Source of the DNA: a virus
Reading direction: 5' to 3' (one strand)
DNA length: 64,000 bases
Virus genome (UHGV): UHGV-1378817
Shown: one piece after another, positions 8,100-39,447 of the stretch
Layout: each line of letters begins with the position of its first letter
Numbering within the stretch: the first letter of the stretch is position 1
Made by a program: the position numbers and the translations under genes
The notes under the pieces: model-generated
What the model was told of the DNA's origin: nothing
What the model saw: the letters and a program-made list of their open reading frames with translations, nothing else
The model's database searches: none

Positions 8100-9647
8100 T
8101 TAGATAAAACGCTTGAACATAGAAGGTGATGAGATTGATGGAATCACACAAGGAAGTGCTACCTCCTCTTTCTCCAGGAAATTAATCGCAGAAGCTACAC
8201 AGTCGGCCCAGTCGTCTTTTCTATTAAATGTTGATCTTTCCCCGTTGAATTTTTCAAGTTCAGTCAGAAATGCTTCCAGAGTATCAGGATGGAAACTGGA
8301 TTTTACAATCCTCACCATTCCTTGTTGGGCAAGATTGGCAAAAGGTGAGAACCTTGTCAGTTTAGATTTGTTGGAAGGCATTGGGTCTTCTTCAACCCTA
8401 AACCCTTCGGCGAGCAAGGATCTAGAGGAGGTTAAGAACTCACTCTTACCTGCCTGACCTGGGTCCACAGAGAAGACGATTATGCAATCATCACCATCAA
8501 ACTGCGCCTGTTTCCTGATGATCACATCTCGTTCACCAGCCTTTTTACAGAACTTGCCTTCCAGACCTGTGGAATACCTCCCGTCATCCACGTTCTCAGG
8601 ACAATAATCACCGGACAGGTAATAAAAGCCGTCGCTATCTTTACTTACCTTAACACTGGCGGTAAAGTCAGGAAACTTATTACCAGAAGTTCTCTCGGTT
8701 CCTGCCTTATCCCATGCCCTACAAGATACTGATCCAAGGGGCACTCTGTCGGCATCACGAAGGAAAGATCTTTGAAAATAGTTTGCACCCTCAGGCTTTG
8801 CAAACCAGTTACCATGGAGAAGCTGAGCTTTTTCAAGCTCGGGCAGACCTTCAAGGAAAGCAAGGTATTCTGGGTTGTCTCTTAAGCAGACAGGATTATC
8901 GAATATTGTTGCGCCTATAAACGAGAATGACAACGGTCTTGGCTTGATCTCCACACCCAGTCCGTTAACCGTGGTGTATTTCTCTATCAACTCTTCTTTA
9001 GAGTCTCCCCAGATAAATTCACCGTCGCGTCGGATAAAATATCTTTTCTTACCACATTTCTCCGGATCTGGATACCCTTCATCGTCCAACCACCATCTAA
9101 CCAGTTTGGCAAGCATGTGTTCTGAATCGGGGTTACAGCTGATAACCATTCTTGATGGATACTTTGACTGAGATCGCAGACGAGACATCAGATAGTCTAT
9201 CTGCTCCCATTCGAACTGCGTGCCCTCATCGAAGCAAACCATGGTATACTCAAGCCCTTGATGGTTAAGCTTATCTTGTACATACTCCATGTGGCAGTAT
9301 TTTACAACAGCTCCCTTTTTGCTTCTATCCCACTTGCCAGTGTTCGGATCAAACCGTGGAAAAATGAACTTATGATCCTTCTCTCTGAACTTTGGCTTAA
9401 TGTTTTCAGGCAGATCACTATAAATAGCTACTGCTTTAGGCCATAGTCCACCCTCACCTTCCAACTGTGGGGTTGTTCTTCGGAACATAACCACAGAGCT
9501 GTGGGGGTCATCAATAATTTTAAGTGGCATCAATTGCAAGAGGAACGACTTGCCAGACCCTGCGGCACCGCCGATTACCAAAATATCTGCATCGTTTTCG
9601 AGGATCATCTTCTGCTTTTCAGAACACGGTCCGTAAATCTTAGACAT
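8100..9647 (-). CDS. terL: terminase large subunit
   Basis: 515 aa; N-terminal Walker A VIGGAAGSGKS, central acidic motifs, C-terminal nuclease-like half; first gene of morphogenesis block. Confidence 0.8.
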   Translation of the reverse strand: MSKIYGPCSEKQKMILENDADILVIGGAAGSGKSFLLQLMPLKIIDDPHSSVVMFRRTTPQLEGEGGLWPKAVAIYSDLPENIKPKFREKDHKFIFPRFDPNTGKWDRSKKGAVVKYCHMEYVQDKLNHQGLEYTMVCFDEGTQFEWEQIDYLMSRLRSQSKYPSRMVISCNPDSEHMLAKLVRWWLDDEGYPDPEKCGKKRYFIRRDGEFIWGDSKEELIEKYTTVNGLGVEIKPRPLSFSFIGATIFDNPVCLRDNPEYLAFLEGLPELEKAQLLHGNWFAKPEGANYFQRSFLRDADRVPLGSVSCRAWDKAGTERTSGNKFPDFTASVKVSKDSDGFYYLSGDYCPENVDDGRYSTGLEGKFCKKAGERDVIIRKQAQFDGDDCIIVFSVDPGQAGKSEFLTSSRSLLAEGFRVEEDPMPSNKSKLTRFSPFANLAQQGMVRIVKSSFHPDTLEAFLTELEKFNGERSTFNRKDDWADCVASAINFLEKEEVALPCVIPSISSPSMFKRFI

Positions 9648-10750: not shown

Positions 10751-10827
10751 TGGTCTCCACGGAGTGATTCGAACACTCGACCTCCTGATCCCAAATCAGG
10801 CGCTCTACCAAGCTGAGCTACGCGGAG
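10751..10827 (-). tRNA. tRNA-Pro (anticodon UGG)
   Basis: Cloverleaf read by hand: 7-bp acceptor, D arm GCTC/GAGC, anticodon arm CCTGA-TTTGGGA-TCAGG, T loop TTCGAAT, encoded CCA. Confidence 0.8.
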
Positions 10828-10838
10828 TATTTATTATT

Positions 10839-10913
10839 TGGTGGCCCTGGGTGGAATTGAACCACCGTCTGGCGATTATGAGTCGCTTGCTTGAACCTTC
10901 CAGCTACAGGGCC
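10839..10913 (-). tRNA. tRNA-Met or Ile2 (anticodon CAU)
   Basis: Acceptor GGCCCTG/CAGGGCC, anticodon arm GCGA-CTCATAA-TCGC, T loop TTCAATT, encoded CCA. Confidence 0.7.
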
Positions 10914-10914
10914 A

Positions 10915-10990
10915 TGGTGCTGATAGCAGGACTCGAACCTGCAACCTATTGATTACAAATCAATTGCACTACCAATTGTGCTACATCAGC
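10915..10990 (-). tRNA. tRNA-Thr (anticodon UGU)
   Basis: Acceptor GCTGATG, D arm GCAC/GTGC, anticodon arm ATTGA-TTTGTAA-TCAAT, T loop TTCGAGT, CCA. Confidence 0.75.
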
Positions 10991-10995
10991 AAAAA

Positions 10996-11094
10996 GGTGC
11001 TAGGTGATGGAATCGAACCACCTATGTATTCAACGACTACCTCGTCTATTTTCAGGATTAAAAATCCTCGCCCTTGCCAAAGGGCTTACCTAGC
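10996..11094 (-). tRNA. atypical long tRNA-like element (~99 nt; anticodon loop reads UUU with 4-bp stem; long extra arm)
   Basis: Acceptor GCTAGGT/ACCTAGC and canonical T arm GGTGG-TTCGATT-CCATC are clear; anticodon arm and a 30-nt variable region are non-canonical; 3' end ACC not CCA. Confidence 0.35.
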
Positions 11095-11192
11095 TCAGTA
11101 TGTTGACCATGTTGCTAGTCGGCGATGACGACTGTAACATTTGATAATCCGGTTCTGCTTCCGGCTTTCGCTTAATTACAAGGTCAACAATA

Positions 11193-11283
11193 TGGCTGAG
11201 GGTAATGGAATCGAACCATCATCGAGTCATCCTCAACGGGACGGTTTTCAAGACCGCTTGAGCACCATTGCTCCCTACCCTCA
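11193..11283 (-). tRNA. tRNA-Ser (anticodon UGA), type II
   Basis: Acceptor TGAGGGT/ACCCTCA, 3-bp D stem, anticodon arm GCGGT-CTTGAAA-ACCGT, long variable arm, T loop TTCGATT, CCA. Confidence 0.75.
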
Positions 11284-11397
11284 TTTATAAACAATACTGA
11301 TAATGACACTGATTTTCGAGCAGTTAGTGACTAGTATAAACGACGATAAATATCAATGCCATTATCTGTATGATTTATGCATTTAAAACTATAAATT

Positions 11398-11484
11398 TGG
11401 TGGGGAGTGGTGGAGTCGAACCACCCGAGTCGCAATGACAATAGATTTACAGTCTACACCGCTACCTCTACGGGATAACTCCCC
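11398..11484 (-). tRNA. tRNA-Tyr (anticodon GUA), type II
   Basis: Acceptor GGGGAGT/ACTCCCC, anticodon arm GTAGA-CTGTAAA-TCTAT, variable arm, T loop TTCGACT, CCA. Confidence 0.75.
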
Positions 11485-11488
11485 AATT

Positions 11489-11563
11489 TGGCACCCCGTA
11501 CTGGACTCGAACCAGTGTCAACGGCTTAGAAGGCCGCTGCTTTATCCACTAAGCTAACAGGGC
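11489..11563 (-). tRNA. tRNA-Arg (anticodon UCU)
   Basis: Acceptor GCCCTGT/ACGGGGT (two G-U pairs), D arm GCTT/AAGC, anticodon arm GCGGC-CTTCTAA-GCCGT, T arm ACTGG-TTCGAGT-CCAGT, CCA. Confidence 0.7.
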
Positions 11564-12665: not shown

Positions 12666-12875
12666 TCAACAGATTCCGGCCTTATCTCGCCTGTCTGCGT
12701 ATTCTTTAATCGCAACCTCCTCGGCATGGGTGACTAAATCTTCAAAGTAACTCTCAAGCTCCTCGTCAATGTCAGGAAACCAACTCTTTTTCCTGTCAGT
12801 GTGAATCGCAGACTTGTTGAATTTATTACAGTTCTTTGCTACCGGATTGTTCATTAATCGCCCCTCAGCGTTCAT
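12666..12875 (-). CDS. hypothetical protein
   Basis: 69 aa ORF; overlaps upstream gene by 11 nt. Confidence 0.35.
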   Translation of the reverse strand: MNAEGRLMNNPVAKNCNKFNKSAIHTDRKKSWFPDIDEELESYFEDLVTHAEEVAIKEYADRRDKAGIC

Positions 12876-13443
12876 AGTAAATCTTATTTAACATTACCTC
12901 ATCCTTTGCAGAGAGAATACCGAGATATGCATCACCGAACCTACCTGCAACAACCTCTACATGATACATAACTTCGTTAATATCGTCAAGAGTGATAACT
13001 GGATGACCGTATCTCTCTGAGTATTGTCTCAGAGTGCGATGTAGGGAATCATCATCGTAGGCAGACTTTTTAATATCACAAACACGACGAATAGCCTTGA
13101 TGTCGAAAAACCCTGTGCGATACCAACCAAGAAAAAGGTTTCGTACAGTGTCAACACCTACATCAACACCGTCAAGAACCTTATCTACAAGATAGCTGTC
13201 ATCCTTTGGACCTGCTTCCTTAGTTCGAATGTAGTTGCCATCTTTTCCAGGTGACAGCTCCTTCTCATCACCAACCTGAATGCCATCATTTGGCGGTGTT
13301 AACCACTTATCCGGATGCTTACGATCACGAGCGTTAGAATGATTACGCTGGAAACCTGGCTTCCACTTGAAAGTTTTCTCCATCTGTTCTTCATTCTGAT
13401 AACGTTTTGCAATCTTTTCACGGTCATCTTTGCGTGGACTCAT
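12865..13443 (-). CDS. hypothetical protein
   Basis: 192 aa ORF with complex composition; first gene downstream of GC-rich segment. Confidence 0.45.
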   Translation of the reverse strand: MSPRKDDREKIAKRYQNEEQMEKTFKWKPGFQRNHSNARDRKHPDKWLTPPNDGIQVGDEKELSPGKDGNYIRTKEAGPKDDSYLVDKVLDGVDVGVDTVRNLFLGWYRTGFFDIKAIRRVCDIKKSAYDDDSLHRTLRQYSERYGHPVITLDDINEVMYHVEVVAGRFGDAYLGILSAKDEVMLNKIYYER

Positions 13444-13559
13444 AACTACCTCCTCTTCAAGTTATAGAAAAACTCACTGTATCGCTTTGTAACGAGCTTT
13501 TCTATCAAACTGGTGCGATTGCCTTACCTGGTATAGTTTATATAGCTGTGGAGCGATTT

Positions 13560-13810
13560 AGGTGCCTTCTTGTCCGTTTCCACACATAAACTTCATCCAA
13601 GCTCGCGCGGGAGACTCTCAACCGACTCCTTACGGCGCTGGCAAGCTTTCGTCGGTGGTCCACATCAGTGCTCGGCCTTTGGCCTGCGCTATCGCTTCGC
13701 TCCCACACATGTTAACAGACCTGCATGTATGCACTTCTGTTATTGTGTGCACCAGGGAGGCCCGGCATCTCGCCCCTCGTAGGCGAGTGCCAATGAAGGG
13801 CCGACACTAC
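13560..13810. other. GC-rich ORF-poor structured segment (candidate ncRNA)
   Basis: About 250 bp of high GC in an AT-rich genome; hairpins such as GGCC-ttt-GGCC and CGCC-cctcgtag-GCG; the two ORFs called here overlap in different frames and lack SD. Confidence 0.3.
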
Positions 13811-13947
13811 CCATAGTAAGTAATAAATTTAAAACATGGTACTTAGGATCTAGTATATTCTACATAAGTTAAGTATATGTACTTAGTACCATAAGTACTA
13901 GATCTTTTATTTTTTATTATTTAGTTATTTTAGTTATATTCTTTATG

Positions 13948-14028
13948 TGTCCGTATCACGGACAGTTAGTGTCCGTATTACGGGCAGATGTGTCCGCGTG
14001 ACGGACAGTAGTGTCCGTATCACGGACA
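13948..14028. promoter_or_regulatory. array of four 17-bp palindromic operator-like sites (TGTCCGT-N3-ACGGACA)
   Basis: Sites at 13948-13964, 13970-13986, 13991-14007, 14012-14028; 21-22 bp centre-to-centre; sites 1 and 4 identical. Confidence 0.5.
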
Positions 14029-14103
14029 GTTACTAACCTCTGTTCCATAGCGAACATAAAACATACGAATCCTTATAGTACAGATATTTAAGTTTTTACT
14101 GGT

Positions 14104-14454
14104 CTAACCAGTTGTTGACATTCGAATAACCTCTTCTGGTGGCAAAACTTTGGAAAATGTGCATCTTTTACCTCTCCCTTGTGTGGATATTTCAACCACT
14201 CCTGCACATTCTAAAGTTTTAACGCACGCTGCTGCTTTTGTTTTCTTTATCCCAACATCTGCTGCAATTTTCCTTGTGCTGGGTGTGAAGCGTGAACTTC
14301 CTCCAAGCTTATACCAGTTGTGCAGGTAGCAGTATACGATCTTGTCATACAAGTCAAGAACAACAACCTCCCCAGTTGTGTCATTCAAAACTTTTGACAT
14401 AGACAGTATTTCAAGGGGGACTTTAAGATATAGCAGCTTATCCCCATCTTTCAT
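14104..14454 (-). CDS. hypothetical protein (possible DNA-binding protein)
   Basis: 116 aa basic ORF immediately upstream (on minus strand) of the palindrome array. Confidence 0.4.
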   Translation of the reverse strand: MKDGDKLLYLKVPLEILSMSKVLNDTTGEVVVLDLYDKIVYCYLHNWYKLGGSSRFTPSTRKIAADVGIKKTKAAACVKTLECAGVVEISTQGRGKRCTFSKVLPPEEVIRMSTTG

Positions 14455-14501
14455 ATCTCCTGATTCTCCTTGTGTGGCAATTTTCTTTAAAATAGCAGGG
14501 A

Positions 14502-15056
14502 TTACTCCCCGCTGTCAATAGCAAGACTCATTGCAATACTGTATGCCTCTTCTAATGGTAAGAGTCTACCCCACACATCCCAACCGACATCAAACTGCCT
14601 GCCAAACAACTGTTGTGTGGTTCCGTGAGCATGACCGAACAGTTGTACTGATCCGTGAGGCTTTCTGTTCCACTTTGCAAACTGGTAATGGCTCATACAG
14701 ATCAAATTCTTGTTGTGGCGAAGCTCGTAATAATCTACAACCTCATGATAGAACTCTTTCATAATTCTGACAGTCGTCCTTGTGTCATGGTTGCCACGAA
14801 CAAGAATAATATGTCCGTTCAACATATTTAGAATATCTGGAAGTAAGTTGTTGATATTTTTATCAGTAGTGCACGCAATATCTCCCAAGTGGAACACAGT
14901 GTCTGCAGGTGACACAACAGAGTTCCACTCGGCGATGATTCCCGCATTCATACTGTCAAGATTGTGATCATACTGAGATCTGTGTTTTTGACATGAATCA
15001 AACTCCATGACCCGCTGGTGGAGAAAGTGTGTGTCGCTTGTTACAAAGTATTTCAT
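14502..15056 (-). CDS. calcineurin-like metallophosphoesterase (candidate 2',3'-phosphatase/phosphoesterase)
   Basis: ORF track trimmed to ATG 15056 (MKYFVTSDTHF...) with GAGGA SD; motifs SDTHF (D-x-H), LGDIA (GD), GNHD, GHAHG. Confidence 0.7.
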   Translation of the reverse strand: MKYFVTSDTHFLHQRVMEFDSCQKHRSQYDHNLDSMNAGIIAEWNSVVSPADTVFHLGDIACTTDKNINNLLPDILNMLNGHIILVRGNHDTRTTVRIMKEFYHEVVDYYELRHNKNLICMSHYQFAKWNRKPHGSVQLFGHAHGTTQQLFGRQFDVGWDVWGRLLPLEEAYSIAMSLAIDSGE

Positions 15057-38658: not shown

Positions 38659-39447
38659 ATGGGTCGAGCTAAAGAAACAAAACGCATGCGTGATGAAGCT
38701 AGAGAGGCTCGCAAATCTGATCGCCTGCGTAAGGCTGCTGAGAAATTTGCTGACGAACGAGAGCACACTGCTCCAGCTCTCCGACCAATGAATAAGAAGC
38801 AGCAAAAGTATCTTGATTATCTAGGGTCACGTAAGATTATTATTGTAAACGGTGTGTTTGGATCCGGTAAGACATTCATGGCATCTGCATATGCAGGTGA
38901 TCTTCTGCGTAAGAACGAGATTGATAAGATCATTGTTGCACGTCCTTACGTTCAGACAGGAAAGACTTCAGGATTTAAACCTGGAAATGCAATGCAGAAA
39001 TTGTGGCCCTATCTTCGAAGCATGATGGACACGATTTGTCGTCGTGTTGGCAAAGGTGCTTTTGCCGCAATGCTGGGAGACGGTCAGAACAGCCGTATCG
39101 AGATTTGTGAAGTTGAAAGCATTCGTGGTCGTAGTTTCGATGAGCGATGCTTTGTCCTGATTGACGAGGCACAGCAAACTAACCCTGAAGAAATGTTGTC
39201 AATTATCACAAGGATCTCTGATCAAGCCACCCTTGTAATTATGGGTGATAATAGCCAACGTGACATCCCTGGTAAATCTGGCCTTGCATGGGTGACGGAT
39301 TTCTTTACTCGTCATCCAGATCCTGAGGTTGGAATGATCAGCTTTGATAGTCCAGACGATGTCGTTCGTTCCGGGTTGGGTCGTCAGATCGCACTCAATC
39401 TTATTGAGGATCGTGCAAATCATATTTGGACCCCTGTTTCCGAGTAA
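38659..39447 (+). CDS. phoH: PhoH-like ATPase
   Basis: Walker A GVFGSGKTF, Walker B VLIDEAQ, PhoH-type C-terminal region. Confidence 0.8.
   Translation: MGRAKETKRMRDEAREARKSDRLRKAAEKFADEREHTAPALRPMNKKQQKYLDYLGSRKIIIVNGVFGSGKTFMASAYAGDLLRKNEIDKIIVARPYVQTGKTSGFKPGNAMQKLWPYLRSMMDTICRRVGKGAFAAMLGDGQNSRIEICEVESIRGRSFDERCFVLIDEAQQTNPEEMLSIITRISDQATLVIMGDNSQRDIPGKSGLAWVTDFFTRHPDPEVGMISFDSPDDVVRSGLGRQIALNLIEDRANHIWTPVSE

What the first reader, a model, noticed from the sequence alone, without database searches (positions are those of the whole stretch)
13948..14028. Four tandem 17-bp palindromes (TGTCCGT-N3-ACGGACA) at 21-22 bp spacing: operator array
The sites are near-perfect dyads two helical turns apart, the classic geometry for cooperative binding of a dimeric regulator on one DNA face. 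They lie between a small basic ORF (14104-14454) and the AT-rich region and GC-rich candidate RNA, so they could gate transcription into that RNA or act as a partition- or origin-like binding array. Next to them (13830-13930) are nested GTACTTA/TAAGTAC and GATCTAGTA/TACTAGATC inverted repeats in AT-rich DNA.
Basis: seen in the sequence. Interest (0 to 1): 0.65.

Follow-up and report, generated by a model that had tools for sequence, protein, structure and literature searches.

The report
Candidate replication origin of rV5-like phages
Four evenly spaced palindromes next to a small DNA-binding gene in an rV5-like E. coli phage look like a lambda-style replication origin served by an unusually short initiator protein, and no origin has yet been defined for this much-used group of phages.

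Summary
Four 17-bp dyads, core TGTCCG-N5-CGGACA, start at 13948, 13970, 13991 and 14012. No other copy exists in the about 135-kb genome. The window is a Vequintavirus (rV5-like coliphage).

The array begins 76 bp after the stop of a 116-aa winged-helix gene (14104-14454, minus strand). The most AT-rich 100 nt of the window follows, then a GC-rich structured element.

Between diverged clades the array has 3/87 variable columns against 16/71 in the adjacent spacer.

The same dyad, in arrays of 2-7 copies at 20-25 bp, lies inside lambda-O-like replication initiator genes in unrelated viral contigs. Small homologues of the 116-aa protein in other large phages are each followed by their own dyad array, an A-rich stretch and a GC hairpin. 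Dyad sequence changes along with the protein's recognition helix. Annotated ori-lambda has the same layout.

Best explanation (about 0.65): a lambda-type iteron origin whose initiator is only the N-terminal DNA-binding domain. Main rival (about 0.2): a transcriptional operator. No binding or replication data exist.

In passing: the GC-rich element is shared with 13.5-kb E. coli plasmid-like elements that look like satellites of these phages.

The parts
14489..14518 (-). Sigma-70-like promoter just upstream of the winged-helix gene (TTGACA-18-TATTTT with TG)
   Evidence: The rV5 record annotates the equivalent site as promoter P76. Transcription from here would run through the array; this is inferred.
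14104..14454 (-). 116-aa winged-helix protein, the candidate iteron-binding initiator (N-terminal-domain-only type)
   Evidence: phrog_12838 E 8.5e-80, with weaker hits to phrog_8102, 428 and 270 'replication initiation protein'. Pfam HTH_36 and DUF6945 hits fall just below cutoff. AF2 model pLDDT 81.8. PDB neighbours are 4ro3, RepA/Rep initiator N-terminal domains and DnaD-NTD. Variation concentrates in third codon positions (33 of 51 variable sites).
14029..14103 (.). Poorly conserved spacer between the gene's stop and the array
   Evidence: 16 of the 71 columns scored (14033-14103) vary between clades. This serves as a near-neutral reference.
14012..14028 (.). Dyad 1 in gene-sense order: TGTCCGTATCACGGACA
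13991..14007 (.). Dyad 2: TGTCCGCGTGACGGACA
   Evidence: The centre varies between clades while the half-sites are kept.
13970..13986 (.). Dyad 3: TGTCCGTATTACGGGCA, with one half-site mismatch
   Evidence: The mismatch is itself conserved in the divergent clade.
13948..13964 (.). Dyad 4, next to the AT-rich region: TGTCCGTATCACGGACA
13821..13947 (.). AT-rich stretch, A-rich on the gene-sense strand: candidate DNA-unwinding element, containing the nested inverted repeats at 13836-13904
   Evidence: GC is 19-23% in 100-nt windows, the lowest in the whole 64 kb. 8 of the 125 columns scored (13821-13945) vary. It sits on the same side of the iterons as the A-rich region of ori-lambda.
13901..13913 (+). 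GATCTTTTATTTT, an exact match to the E. coli oriC 13-mer consensus GATCTnTTnTTTT
   Evidence: It is the only exact match in the window and in the rest of the genome, against about 0.1 expected per 64 kb. This is a lead only, because it sits in T-rich DNA.
13604..13805 (-). GC-rich conserved structured element (RNA or folded single-stranded DNA) just beyond the AT-rich region. It is linked to the array by position; its function is unknown.
   Evidence: No Rfam family. No 3-base periodicity in its substitutions. Consensus structure of 52 pairs, 97% paired, 4 pairs with compensatory changes, slid controls 34-44%. It is kept in L088 although initiator and dyads are swapped there. It is also present next to different iterons in 13.5-kb plasmids.
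12865..13443 (-). 192-aa gene of unknown function that bounds the non-coding region
   Evidence: phrog_12226. It is syntenic in L088 at 83% identity and shows no similarity to the C-terminal domains of O-like initiators.

Best explanation
The array is the iteron block of a lambda-type origin of replication.

Proposed mechanism:
- Dimers of the 116-aa winged-helix protein, encoded immediately upstream, each bind one 17-bp dyad (TGTCCG-N5-CGGACA).
- The four sites are two helical turns apart, so the dimers sit on one DNA face and can assemble into a wrapped nucleoprotein complex like the lambda O-some.
- That complex strains and opens the adjacent A-rich, 19-23% GC stretch (13821-13947).
- The phage's own primase-helicase, or host factors, are then loaded there.
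- The GC-rich structured element beyond it (13604-13805) may act as the priming site or as an origin transcript.

Shown here: the site anatomy, its uniqueness in the genome, its conservation, the pairing of protein type with dyad type, and the identical layout in annotated ori-lambda and in O-like genes.

Inferred, not shown: binding, unwinding, helicase loading and replication start.

The system differs from lambda in two ways. The initiator is only the N-terminal DNA-binding domain, and the origin lies after the gene rather than inside it.
For: 1. Uniqueness and conservation.
- There are four sites and no other in about 135 kb.
- Between clades whose protein differs by 12-15%, the array has 3/87 variable columns against 16/71 in the adjacent spacer (Fisher p = 3e-4). 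Array changes fall in the N5 centres or the flank.

2. The same dyad marks origin positions elsewhere.
- An IMG/VR scan found 21 unrelated contigs (GC 40-70%) with clusters of 2-7 copies at 20-25 bp spacing.
- In most of these the cluster lies inside a 220-420-aa ORF, just 3' of its HTH_36 domain where Pfam detects one (L016, L065). 9 of 10 tested ORFs hit PHROG 'replication initiation protein' or 'O-like' families.
- In several lineages a sharp 40-bp AT dip follows the cluster.

3. Annotated ori-lambda has the same layout. It has four 18-bp iterons that are TCCCTC-N5-GAGGGA dyads, spaced 20, 24 and 23 bp. An A-rich stretch on the O-sense strand follows, then a palindrome (PMC7466680).

4. Protein and dyads form a cognate pair.
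- Syntenic contig L088 has a different 143-aa homologue (27% identity) and different dyads at the same place.
- Six other large-phage contigs with small homologues each carry 4-6 dyads right after the stop, then an A-rich stretch, then a GC hairpin.
- The half-site tracks the recognition helix. TGTCCG goes with H[SN]RYSEARK in 4 of 4 cases, and other half-sites go with altered helices.
- Henunavirus and Mydovirus homologues sit next to their own dyads plus AT-rich DNA.

5. The protein resembles initiator N-terminal domains.
- It hits phrog_8102, 428 and 270.
- Its Henunavirus homologue hits phrog_8102 at 5e-33, covering only the first third of a 337-residue profile, and also hits the O-like families 678 and 391 that lambda O itself hits.
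- The AF2 model's best named PDB neighbours include RepA/Rep initiator N-terminal domains and DnaD-NTD.

6. The adjacent DNA is the most AT-rich in the window and holds the genome's only exact oriC-type 13-mer.

7. The rV5 genome paper tried and failed to locate an origin by skew analysis (PMC3606486).
Against: - No experimental data of any kind bear on binding or replication.
- The protein has no C-terminal domain of the kind that in lambda O recruits P/DnaB. The downstream 192-aa protein shows no similarity to such domains. How a helicase would be recruited is therefore unknown.
- Sequence links to initiator families are weak for the window protein itself: Pfam hits are below cutoff and phrog_270 scores E 0.007.
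- The 'replication initiation protein' labels in PHROGs and RefSeq are annotations, not tests. The rV5 authors likened the protein to a GntR-type regulator.
- In Henunavirus and Mydovirus the dyads lie in the gene's own promoter region, as an autoregulatory operator would.
- In the metagenomic relatives a perfect TATAAT sits just after the last dyad, which would also suit a regulated promoter.
- ORFs downstream of the O-like genes gave no helicase or loader hits.
Confidence: 0.65

Rival explanations
1. Transcriptional operator array. The winged-helix protein is a repressor or activator. By binding the four dyads cooperatively it either controls a promoter in the AT-rich DNA that drives the GC-rich RNA and the 192-aa gene, or blocks read-through from its own operon.
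For: - Dyads at two-turn spacing are classic operator geometry.
- rV5 and BASEL annotators called the protein a regulator.
- In Henunavirus and Mydovirus the dyads lie between the homologue's start and divergent promoters.
- In the metagenomic subfamily a TATAAT follows the last dyad.
- The GC-rich element folds on the gene-sense strand, so something downstream may be transcribed.
Against: - No sigma-70-like promoter of 9/12 or better, and no terminator, lies within 13830-14100. The rV5 record annotates none there.
- In the window the post-dyad hexamer is TATAAC, which lacks the critical final T.
- The same dyad arrays sit inside O-like initiator coding sequences, where an operator makes little sense.
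- The combination of array, A-rich tract and hairpin copies ori-lambda.
- A regulator with a single target cluster in 135 kb is possible but adds nothing the origin model lacks.
Confidence: 0.2
2. Packaging-recognition (pac) or another non-replicative DNA-protein assembly site. The small winged-helix protein would mark the concatemer for the terminase, much as lambda gpNu1 binds the repeated R sites of cosB. A partition centromere is a related possibility.
For: - Vequintaviruses package by headful and are circularly permuted, and their pac site is unmapped (PMC8407724 and PMC13211470; PMC3606486).
- Repeated sites bound by small winged-helix proteins are typical of pac/cos recognition (established knowledge).
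- The neighbouring GC-rich element is shared with candidate satellites, as packaging signals often are.
Against: - The candidate satellites carry different iterons and their own HTH protein, and share only the GC-rich element. The array therefore behaves as a replicon-specific element, not a shared packaging signal.
- The protein's detectable relatives are initiator families, not small terminases.
- There is no terminase small-subunit context.
- No ParA/ParB genes are nearby, and the phage is virulent.
Confidence: 0.05
3. Inactive relic. A lambdoid-type replication module was captured and lost its C-terminal half. The array and the gene persist without a present function.
For: - The protein corresponds to only the first third of longer initiator profiles.
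- The origin lies outside a gene, unlike in lambdoid phages.
Against: - The array and AT-rich DNA vary less than the adjacent coding sequence: 11/212 against 51/348 variable columns, p = 4e-4.
- Substitutions in the gene concentrate in third codon positions, as expected for a gene still under selection.
- 82 small homologues of 105-182 aa exist, many of them on 126-183-kb contigs, and the six looked up all share the same gene-then-array layout. The short form is therefore a stable design, not decay.
Confidence: 0.05

Closest known systems
Bacteriophage lambda origin (ori-lambda) with initiator O
   Same: - Four iterons, each a 6-N5-6 dyad of 17-18 bp, at 20-24 bp spacing.
- An A-rich (initiator-sense strand) AT tract immediately after the last iteron, then a palindrome.
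- The iterons lie 3' of the sequence coding for a winged-helix DNA-binding domain.
- An early promoter would send transcription through the site.
(compared.)
   Different: - The iteron sequence differs: TCCCTC-N5-GAGGGA against TGTCCG-N5-CGGACA.
- The lambda origin lies inside gene O, whereas here the array starts 76 bp after the stop codon.
- O has 299 aa with a P-binding C-terminal domain, whereas this protein has 116 aa and no such domain.
- There is no Pfam Phage_rep_O match.
- The AT-rich tract is about 125 bp rather than about 40.
- The host phage is a 135-kb virulent myovirus that encodes its own polymerase and helicases.
O-like initiator genes with internal TGTCCG-N5-CGGACA arrays in uncultivated viral contigs (IMG/VR loci L016, L034, L035, L050, L055, L060, L065, L073)
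   Same: - The identical 17-bp dyad core, at the same 20-25 bp spacing, in 2-7 copies.
- The array lies just after the N-terminal part of the ORF (the HTH_36 domain where Pfam detects one), and in several cases a 40-bp AT dip follows.

   Different: - Those arrays are translated as part of a 220-420-aa protein that has a C-terminal domain.
- Their N-terminal regions are only distantly related to the window protein.
- Their recognition helices share no obvious signature with it.
RepA_N-type initiators of staphylococcal multiresistance plasmids (PDB 4pql, 4pt7, 4pta, 5kbj) and DnaD N-terminal domain (8ojj, 2vn2)
   Same: - The AF2 model's best named structural neighbours are these winged-helix N-terminal domains.
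- RepA_N initiators bind iterons located within their own gene (established knowledge).
   Different: - TM-scores are only 0.5-0.6 and identity 12-21%.
- There is no Pfam RepA_N or DnaD hit for the window protein.
- Those proteins carry a second, host-factor-binding domain.
Plasmid R1 oriR with a downstream G4-type single-strand initiation signal; IncQ oriV with ssiA/ssiB
   Same: An initiator-binding region and an AT-rich region are followed, within a few hundred bp, by a GC-rich element that folds strand-specifically and could direct priming. This resemblance comes from my own knowledge. The strand-specific fold is shown.
   Different: - There is no sequence similarity to any plasmid ssi in PLSDB at blastn sensitivity.
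- A priming function is not tested, and the element could equally be an RNA.

Membership tests
Lambda-type (lambdoid O/ori) iteron origin | Several directly repeated iterons, each with internal dyad symmetry, about 20-24 bp apart | tested here: met
   Four 17-bp dyads at 22, 21 and 21 bp. Lambda has four 18-bp dyads at 20, 24 and 23 bp.
Lambda-type (lambdoid O/ori) iteron origin | An AT-rich unwinding region directly flanking the iterons, on the side away from the initiator's N-terminal coding sequence | tested here: met
   13821-13947 has the lowest GC of the window at 19-23%, and is A-rich on the gene-sense strand as in lambda. Unwinding itself is not testable here.
Lambda-type (lambdoid O/ori) iteron origin | A palindrome or hairpin beyond the AT-rich region | tested here: met
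   A GC-rich hairpin starts the structured element at 13805. Relatives L042 and L090-L094 have perfect GC hairpins at the same position, and L095 has GC-rich repeats there. Lambda has a palindrome there.
Lambda-type (lambdoid O/ori) iteron origin | Origin located inside the initiator gene | tested here: not met
   The array begins 76 bp after the stop codon of 14104-14454.
Lambda-type (lambdoid O/ori) iteron origin | Initiator with an N-terminal iteron-binding domain homologous to O | tested here: inconclusive
   There is no Pfam Phage_rep_O hit. HTH_36 and DUF6945 fall just below cutoff. PHROG initiator families score 5e-6 to 7e-3. The link to O-like families 678 and 391 runs only through the Henunavirus homologue.
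Lambda-type (lambdoid O/ori) iteron origin | Initiator C-terminal domain that recruits the helicase loader (P) and DnaB | tested here: not met
   The protein has 116 aa and is a single winged-helix domain plus one helix. The downstream 192-aa protein is unrelated to O C-terminal domains.
Lambda-type (lambdoid O/ori) iteron origin | Initiator binds the iterons and replication starts there | not testable with these tools
   This needs EMSA or footprinting, marker-frequency analysis or 2D gels.
Repressor-operator system | Binding sites overlap or adjoin a promoter that they control | tested here: inconclusive
   The consensus scan finds no sigma-70-like promoter within 13830-14100, and rV5 annotates none there. 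Phage-specific promoter types are not covered by the scan, and relatives have a TATAAT after the last dyad.
Repressor-operator system | The regulator belongs to a known transcription-factor family | tested here: inconclusive
Partition site (parS/centromere) | Adjacent ParA-type ATPase and ParB-type or adaptor genes, on a stably maintained episome | tested here: not met
   The neighbours are phosphoesterase, polynucleotide kinase, RNA ligase and tRNAs. The phage is virulent (PMC3606486).
E. coli oriC-type unwinding element | Tandem 13-mers GATCTnTTnTTTT together with DnaA boxes | tested here: not met
   There is one exact 13-mer at 13901-13913, not three. No DnaA box lies between 13400 and 14180; the only 1-mismatch match in the 13400-14200 scan is at 14182 inside the gene. 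No IHF consensus is present.
Rfam RNA families (for the adjacent GC-rich element) | Match to a curated covariance model | tested here: not met
   There is no gathering-score match in 13380-14120. The best is a spurious rli43 hit at 23.9 bits against a cutoff of 100.

The most novel reading that the evidence does not exclude
Large virulent myoviruses, including rV5-like phages and several uncultivated 126-183-kb lineages, use a previously undescribed minimal replicon made of three parts:
- an initiator of about 110 aa that is only a winged-helix domain;
- a cognate block of 17-bp dyad iterons placed just after its stop codon;
- an A-rich unwinding tract followed by a structured GC-rich element.

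In Vequintaviruses that GC-rich element would be a portable cis-acting signal, for priming, an origin RNA or packaging. The 13.5-kb E. coli plasmid-like elements, which carry their own initiator and iterons plus rV5-related capsid, baseplate and tape-measure genes, would have copied it to exploit the phage. That would make them the first satellites described for this phage group.
Probability: 0.25. Interest if true: 0.75.

Novelty: new variant of a known kind. Interest (0 to 1): 0.6.

Why it matters
- rV5-like phages (Vequintavirus) are among the coliphages most often isolated, and they are used in typing, biocontrol and therapy. Their 2013 genome paper stated that the origin could not be defined (PMC3606486).
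- A concrete and cheaply testable origin candidate, with its likely initiator, would help with engineering: replicating shuttle fragments, conditional replication, and reporter phages. It would also open study of how a large virulent phage starts replication.
- If confirmed, it shows that the lambda O-some design works with the DNA-binding domain alone. That raises the question of how the helicase is recruited.
- It also gives a recognisable sequence signature for finding origins in large uncultivated phages: a small winged-helix gene, then a dyad array, then an A-rich tract, then a GC hairpin.
- The shared GC-rich element and the 13.5-kb elements point to a possible helper-satellite system.

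Tried and rejected
- The search for related loci with the protein family in IMG/VR found no relative. Vequintaviruses seem nearly absent from that collection; the one Vequintavirinae-like syntenic contig there (L088) turned up later through a DNA pattern.
- The first AF2 model, built from 5 near-identical sequences, was unusable at pLDDT 45. It was redone with 81 sequences.
- The exhaustive HMMER search with the single protein gave only weak or spurious distant hits.
- Split-initiator idea, in which the 192-aa downstream protein would be the lost O C-terminal domain: phmmer and tblastn found no similarity. Unsupported.
- GC-rich region as a decayed coding sequence: substitutions show no 3-base periodicity (13/12/10). 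Rejected.
- GC-rich region as host-derived DNA: there are no chromosomal E. coli matches, only small plasmids.
- The 17-mer GAGAAAGCTTGCCAGCGCC-type core (searched as GAAAGCTTGCCAGCGCC) in IMG/VR gave 6 loci, of which 5 are chance matches and only L088 is homologous.
- GATC (Dam) clustering at the site: GATC is over-represented across the whole window but not locally.
- DnaA boxes and IHF sites are absent from the non-coding region.
- A shared recognition-helix signature between the window protein and the O-like proteins that use the same dyad: none is evident. The covariation holds only within the closely related metagenomic subfamily.
- Genes downstream of the array-bearing O-like ORFs gave no Pfam or PHROG hits to helicases or loaders.
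- The apparently paired changes at 13838 and 13890 in the AT-rich inverted repeat are not compensatory (they give T opposite T). I draw no hairpin conclusion there.
- Literature searches for iterons or origins in Vequintavirinae found nothing.

Full report
**1. The observation**

The four sites are real. TGTCCGTNNNACGGACA matches at 13948, 13970, 13991 and 14012 with 0, 1, 1 and 0 mismatches. It matches nowhere else in the window, against 0.10 expected from shuffles. Spacing is 22, 21 and 21 bp.

The window is a Vequintavirus (rV5-like coliphage), 99.8% identical to APECc02 over the region. I scanned the window together with the remaining 71.7 kb of APECc02. No further site has 1 mismatch or fewer over the 12 core bases. 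The array is therefore unique in a genome of about 135 kb.

**2. Anatomy**

All genes from 15161 down to about 8100 lie on the minus strand. Reading that strand gives this order:
- a sigma-70-like promoter at 14518-14489, annotated as P76 in rV5;
- a 116-aa gene at 14454-14104;
- a 75-bp spacer;
- the four dyads at 14028-13948;
- about 125 bp of A-rich DNA at 19-30% GC, which holds the lowest-GC 100-nt windows of the whole 64 kb;
- a GC-rich block of about 280 bp at 54-63% GC;
- a 192-aa gene starting at 13443.

No sigma-70-like promoter or intrinsic terminator is found between 13830 and 14100.

**3. Conservation**

A divergent Vequintavirus clade (loci L003 and L005-L010) has a protein 85-88% identical to the window's. 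I aligned it across the region and counted variable columns:

| Segment | Variable columns | Note |
|---|---|---|
| Winged-helix gene | 51/348 | 33 in third codon positions |
| Spacer before the array | 16/71 | |
| Array | 3/87 | two in the N5 centres, one in a flank |
| AT-rich tract | 8/125 | |
| GC-rich block | 35/281 | no 3-base periodicity |

The array differs from the spacer at Fisher p = 3e-4. The half-sites TGTCCG and CGGACA and the inter-site spacers are invariant. The true core is therefore TGTCCG-N5-CGGACA. The array and the AT tract are under stronger constraint than the coding sequence beside them.

**4. The protein**

- It is the founding type of phrog_12838. It also hits phrog_8102, 428 and 270, all named 'replication initiation protein', at E 5e-6 to 7e-3.
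- Pfam HTH_36 and DUF6945 score just under their cutoffs.
- By BLAST-level search the family is confined to the genus.
- A profile search found 82 small homologues, nearly all 105-120 aa, many of them on 126-183-kb contigs.
- With these in the alignment, AlphaFold gives a confident model (pLDDT 81.8). It shows a beta-hairpin, three helices, a wing and a C-terminal helix.
- Foldseek ranks 4ro3 (unknown function) first. RepA/Rep initiator N-terminal domains of staphylococcal plasmids come next, ahead of CodY- and MarR-type regulators.

The fold is compatible with an initiator domain but does not by itself decide the question.

**5. The same dyad elsewhere**

An exact-pattern scan of IMG/VR for two adjacent sites returned 65 loci, none of them a Vequintavirus. 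Twenty-one have clusters of 2-7 copies at 20-25 bp spacing, in contigs of 40-70% GC.

In most of these the cluster lies inside a 220-420-aa ORF. Nine of ten tested ORFs hit PHROG 'replication initiation protein' or 'replication initiation O-like' families. Where Pfam detects an HTH_36 domain (L016, L065), it lies just upstream of the array. In five loci (L034 and the L050/L055/L060/L073 group) the 40 bp after the array drop to 25-35% GC in contigs of 61-66% GC.

This is the layout of lambdoid phages, where the origin lies in the middle of gene O (PMC7466680). One locus, L042 (40% GC), has a 120-aa HTH_36 gene with the array straight after its stop, as in the window.

**6. Direct comparison with ori-lambda**

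The RefSeq lambda record annotates four 18-bp iterons at 39034-39118, with starts 20, 24 and 23 bp apart. Each is a TCCCTC-N5-GAGGGA dyad, the same 6-N5-6 geometry as here. An A-rich stretch on the O-sense strand follows (CACAAAAGACACTATTACAAAAGAAAAAAGAAAAGATTATT), and then a palindrome.

The window has the same order and polarity: winged-helix coding sequence, four dyads, an A-rich tract on the gene-sense strand, then a GC-rich hairpin.

Lambda O hits phrog_391, 678 and 345. These are the families hit by the array-bearing ORFs and by the Henunavirus homologue of the window protein.

**7. Protein and dyads change together**

- Contig L088 (137 kb) is syntenic: phosphoesterase, small winged-helix gene, non-coding region, and a 192-aa gene at 83% identity. 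Its winged-helix protein is a different 143-aa homologue (27% identity, E 5e-7). Right after its stop lie five different dyads, TCTGATRCA-N3-5-TGYATCAGA.
- Henunavirus and Mydovirus have 105-107-aa homologues next to TGCTCAA-A-TTGAGCA repeats and AT-rich DNA.
- Six metagenomic contigs were chosen only for carrying a small homologue. Each has a 170-630-bp non-coding gap straight after the gene, holding 4-6 17-bp dyads. An A-rich stretch follows, and then a perfect GC hairpin in five of the six.
- Within that closely related subfamily the half-site tracks the recognition helix:

| Half-site | Recognition helix | Cases |
|---|---|---|
| TGTCCG | H[SN]RYSEARK | 4 of 4 |
| TGTACG | HARYNEARK | 1 |
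| GTGTCG | HSSYVDARK | 1 |
| CAACCG | ASRYREARD | 1 |

This is the pattern expected if the protein reads the adjacent dyads. It is also how replicon specificity modules behave in lambdoid phages.

**8. Interpretation**

The best-supported reading is a lambda-type iteron origin. Dimers of the 116-aa protein would occupy the four in-phase dyads and form a wrapped complex that opens the adjacent A-rich tract.

Two defining features of the lambdoid family are not met. The origin is not inside the gene, and the initiator lacks the C-terminal domain that recruits the helicase loader. I therefore file it as working like ori-lambda, but as a new variant rather than a member.

How a helicase is recruited is unknown. 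The phage encodes its own helicases and polymerase (PMC3606486).

Supporting leads are weak. The only exact oriC-type 13-mer in the genome lies in the AT tract, and an early promoter would send transcription through the site.

The rV5 genome paper reports that skew analysis failed to reveal the origin. I found no paper describing iterons in this subfamily.

**9. Rivals**

- An operator role (about 0.2) remains possible and could coexist with an origin role. In Henunavirus and Mydovirus the dyads lie in the gene's promoter region, and relatives have a TATAAT after the last dyad.
- A packaging role (about 0.05) is not excluded by the literature, which shows only that these genomes are permuted and packaged by headful. 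The candidate satellites, however, do not share the array.
- A relic (about 0.05) is contradicted by the conservation.

**10. The GC-rich element (13604-13805, minus strand)**

- It matches no Rfam family and is non-coding.
- It is kept in L088 despite the swap of initiator and dyads.
- It recurs, whole or as its 3' domain, in 13.2-13.7-kb E. coli 'plasmids'. There it follows a different iteron block (CGGTAAATATTTCCG repeats) and AT/GATC-rich DNA.
- RNAalifold on eight sequences gives 52 pairs, 97% of cells paired, and four pairs with compensatory changes. Slid controls give 34-44%.
- Invariant U-G pairs place the fold on the gene-sense strand.

It could be an RNA, a single-strand priming signal or some other cis-acting site. 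I could not decide between these.

**11. The 13.5-kb elements**

One of them is assembled as a trimer. They encode proteins related to Vequintavirus proteins by tblastn: baseplate at 50% identity, a 152-aa protein at 43%, an 83-aa protein at 68%, tape measure at 25% and capsid at 24%. They also carry their own HTH protein.

They look like satellites of rV5-like phages. They have their own replication specificity and share the GC-rich element with the phage.

**12. Verdict**

Novelty: a new variant of a known kind. Interest is 0.6. That reflects a testable origin candidate for an important phage group, plus a recurring minimal-initiator module in large phages. All functional steps remain inferred.

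Noticed in passing
window 13604-13805 (minus strand), broader block 13540-13820: A GC-rich, non-coding, strand-specifically structured element that matches no Rfam family. Its consensus structure has 52 pairs and 4 compensatory pairs. It is conserved in the syntenic contig L088 although initiator and dyads are swapped there. It is also present next to different iterons in 13.5-kb E. coli plasmids. Whether it is an RNA, a priming signal or a packaging signal is unresolved.
   Followed up: partly
L082 (NZ_CP020521.1) 1-2200; L089 (NZ_CP043822.1) whole record: E. coli 'plasmids' of about 13.5 kb (one assembled as a 39.6-kb trimer) encode capsid, tape-measure and baseplate proteins 24-68% identical to Vequintavirus proteins. 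They also carry their own HTH protein, about seven CGGTAAATATTTCCG dyad repeats and three 28-bp repeats, and they share the window's GC-rich element. They are candidate satellites of rV5-like phages.
   Followed up: partly
L090-L095, genes at about 2080-2840 in each locus: In the metagenomic large-phage relatives the small winged-helix gene is preceded by a conserved pair: a small gene of 65-68 aa (hitting HTH_3 in L092 and L095) followed by a DUF5659 gene. This gene order recalls cro-cII-O of lambda.
   Followed up: no
L011 2700-2945 (Henunavirus); L012 2488-2765 (Mydovirus): In these sister genera the homologous small 'replication initiation protein' gene sits at a divergent promoter region. 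Two TGCTCAA-A-TTGAGCA repeats lie 23 bp apart just upstream of its start, followed by AT-rich DNA containing AGATCT. The placement relative to the gene differs from that in the window.
   Followed up: partly
window 10996-11094 (minus strand), within the tRNA cluster 10751-11563: ARAGORN calls a 99-nt tRNA with a 4-base anticodon (atcc), and Rfam scores it only 35.5 bits. BASEL annotates the equivalent as tRNA-Lys and APECc02 does not annotate it. It may be an intron-containing or aberrant tRNA.
   Followed up: no
whole window: GATC occurs 355 times against 227 +/- 15 expected from shuffles. The related genome APECc02 encodes two DNA methyltransferases.
   Followed up: no
GenBank records matched (for example MG065654, MG065666, MG065646): Eighteen records named 'Campylobacter phage', with host given as C. 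jejuni, are about 98.5% identical to this E. coli Vequintavirus region. This suggests mislabelled or contaminating phages in that submission series.
   Followed up: no
window 8100-9647 (minus strand): The window has a single 515-aa ORF where APECc02 annotates separate 'endonuclease VII' and 'terminase large subunit' (146 aa) genes. The rV5 paper reports an intron-split terminase gene, so annotation of this locus is inconsistent between records.
   Followed up: no
window 13571-13576 and L088 about 1711-1716: A lone CGGACA half-site sits at the 3' edge of the GC-rich block. It is also present in L088, whose dyads are different, so it is probably unrelated to the array.
   Followed up: no
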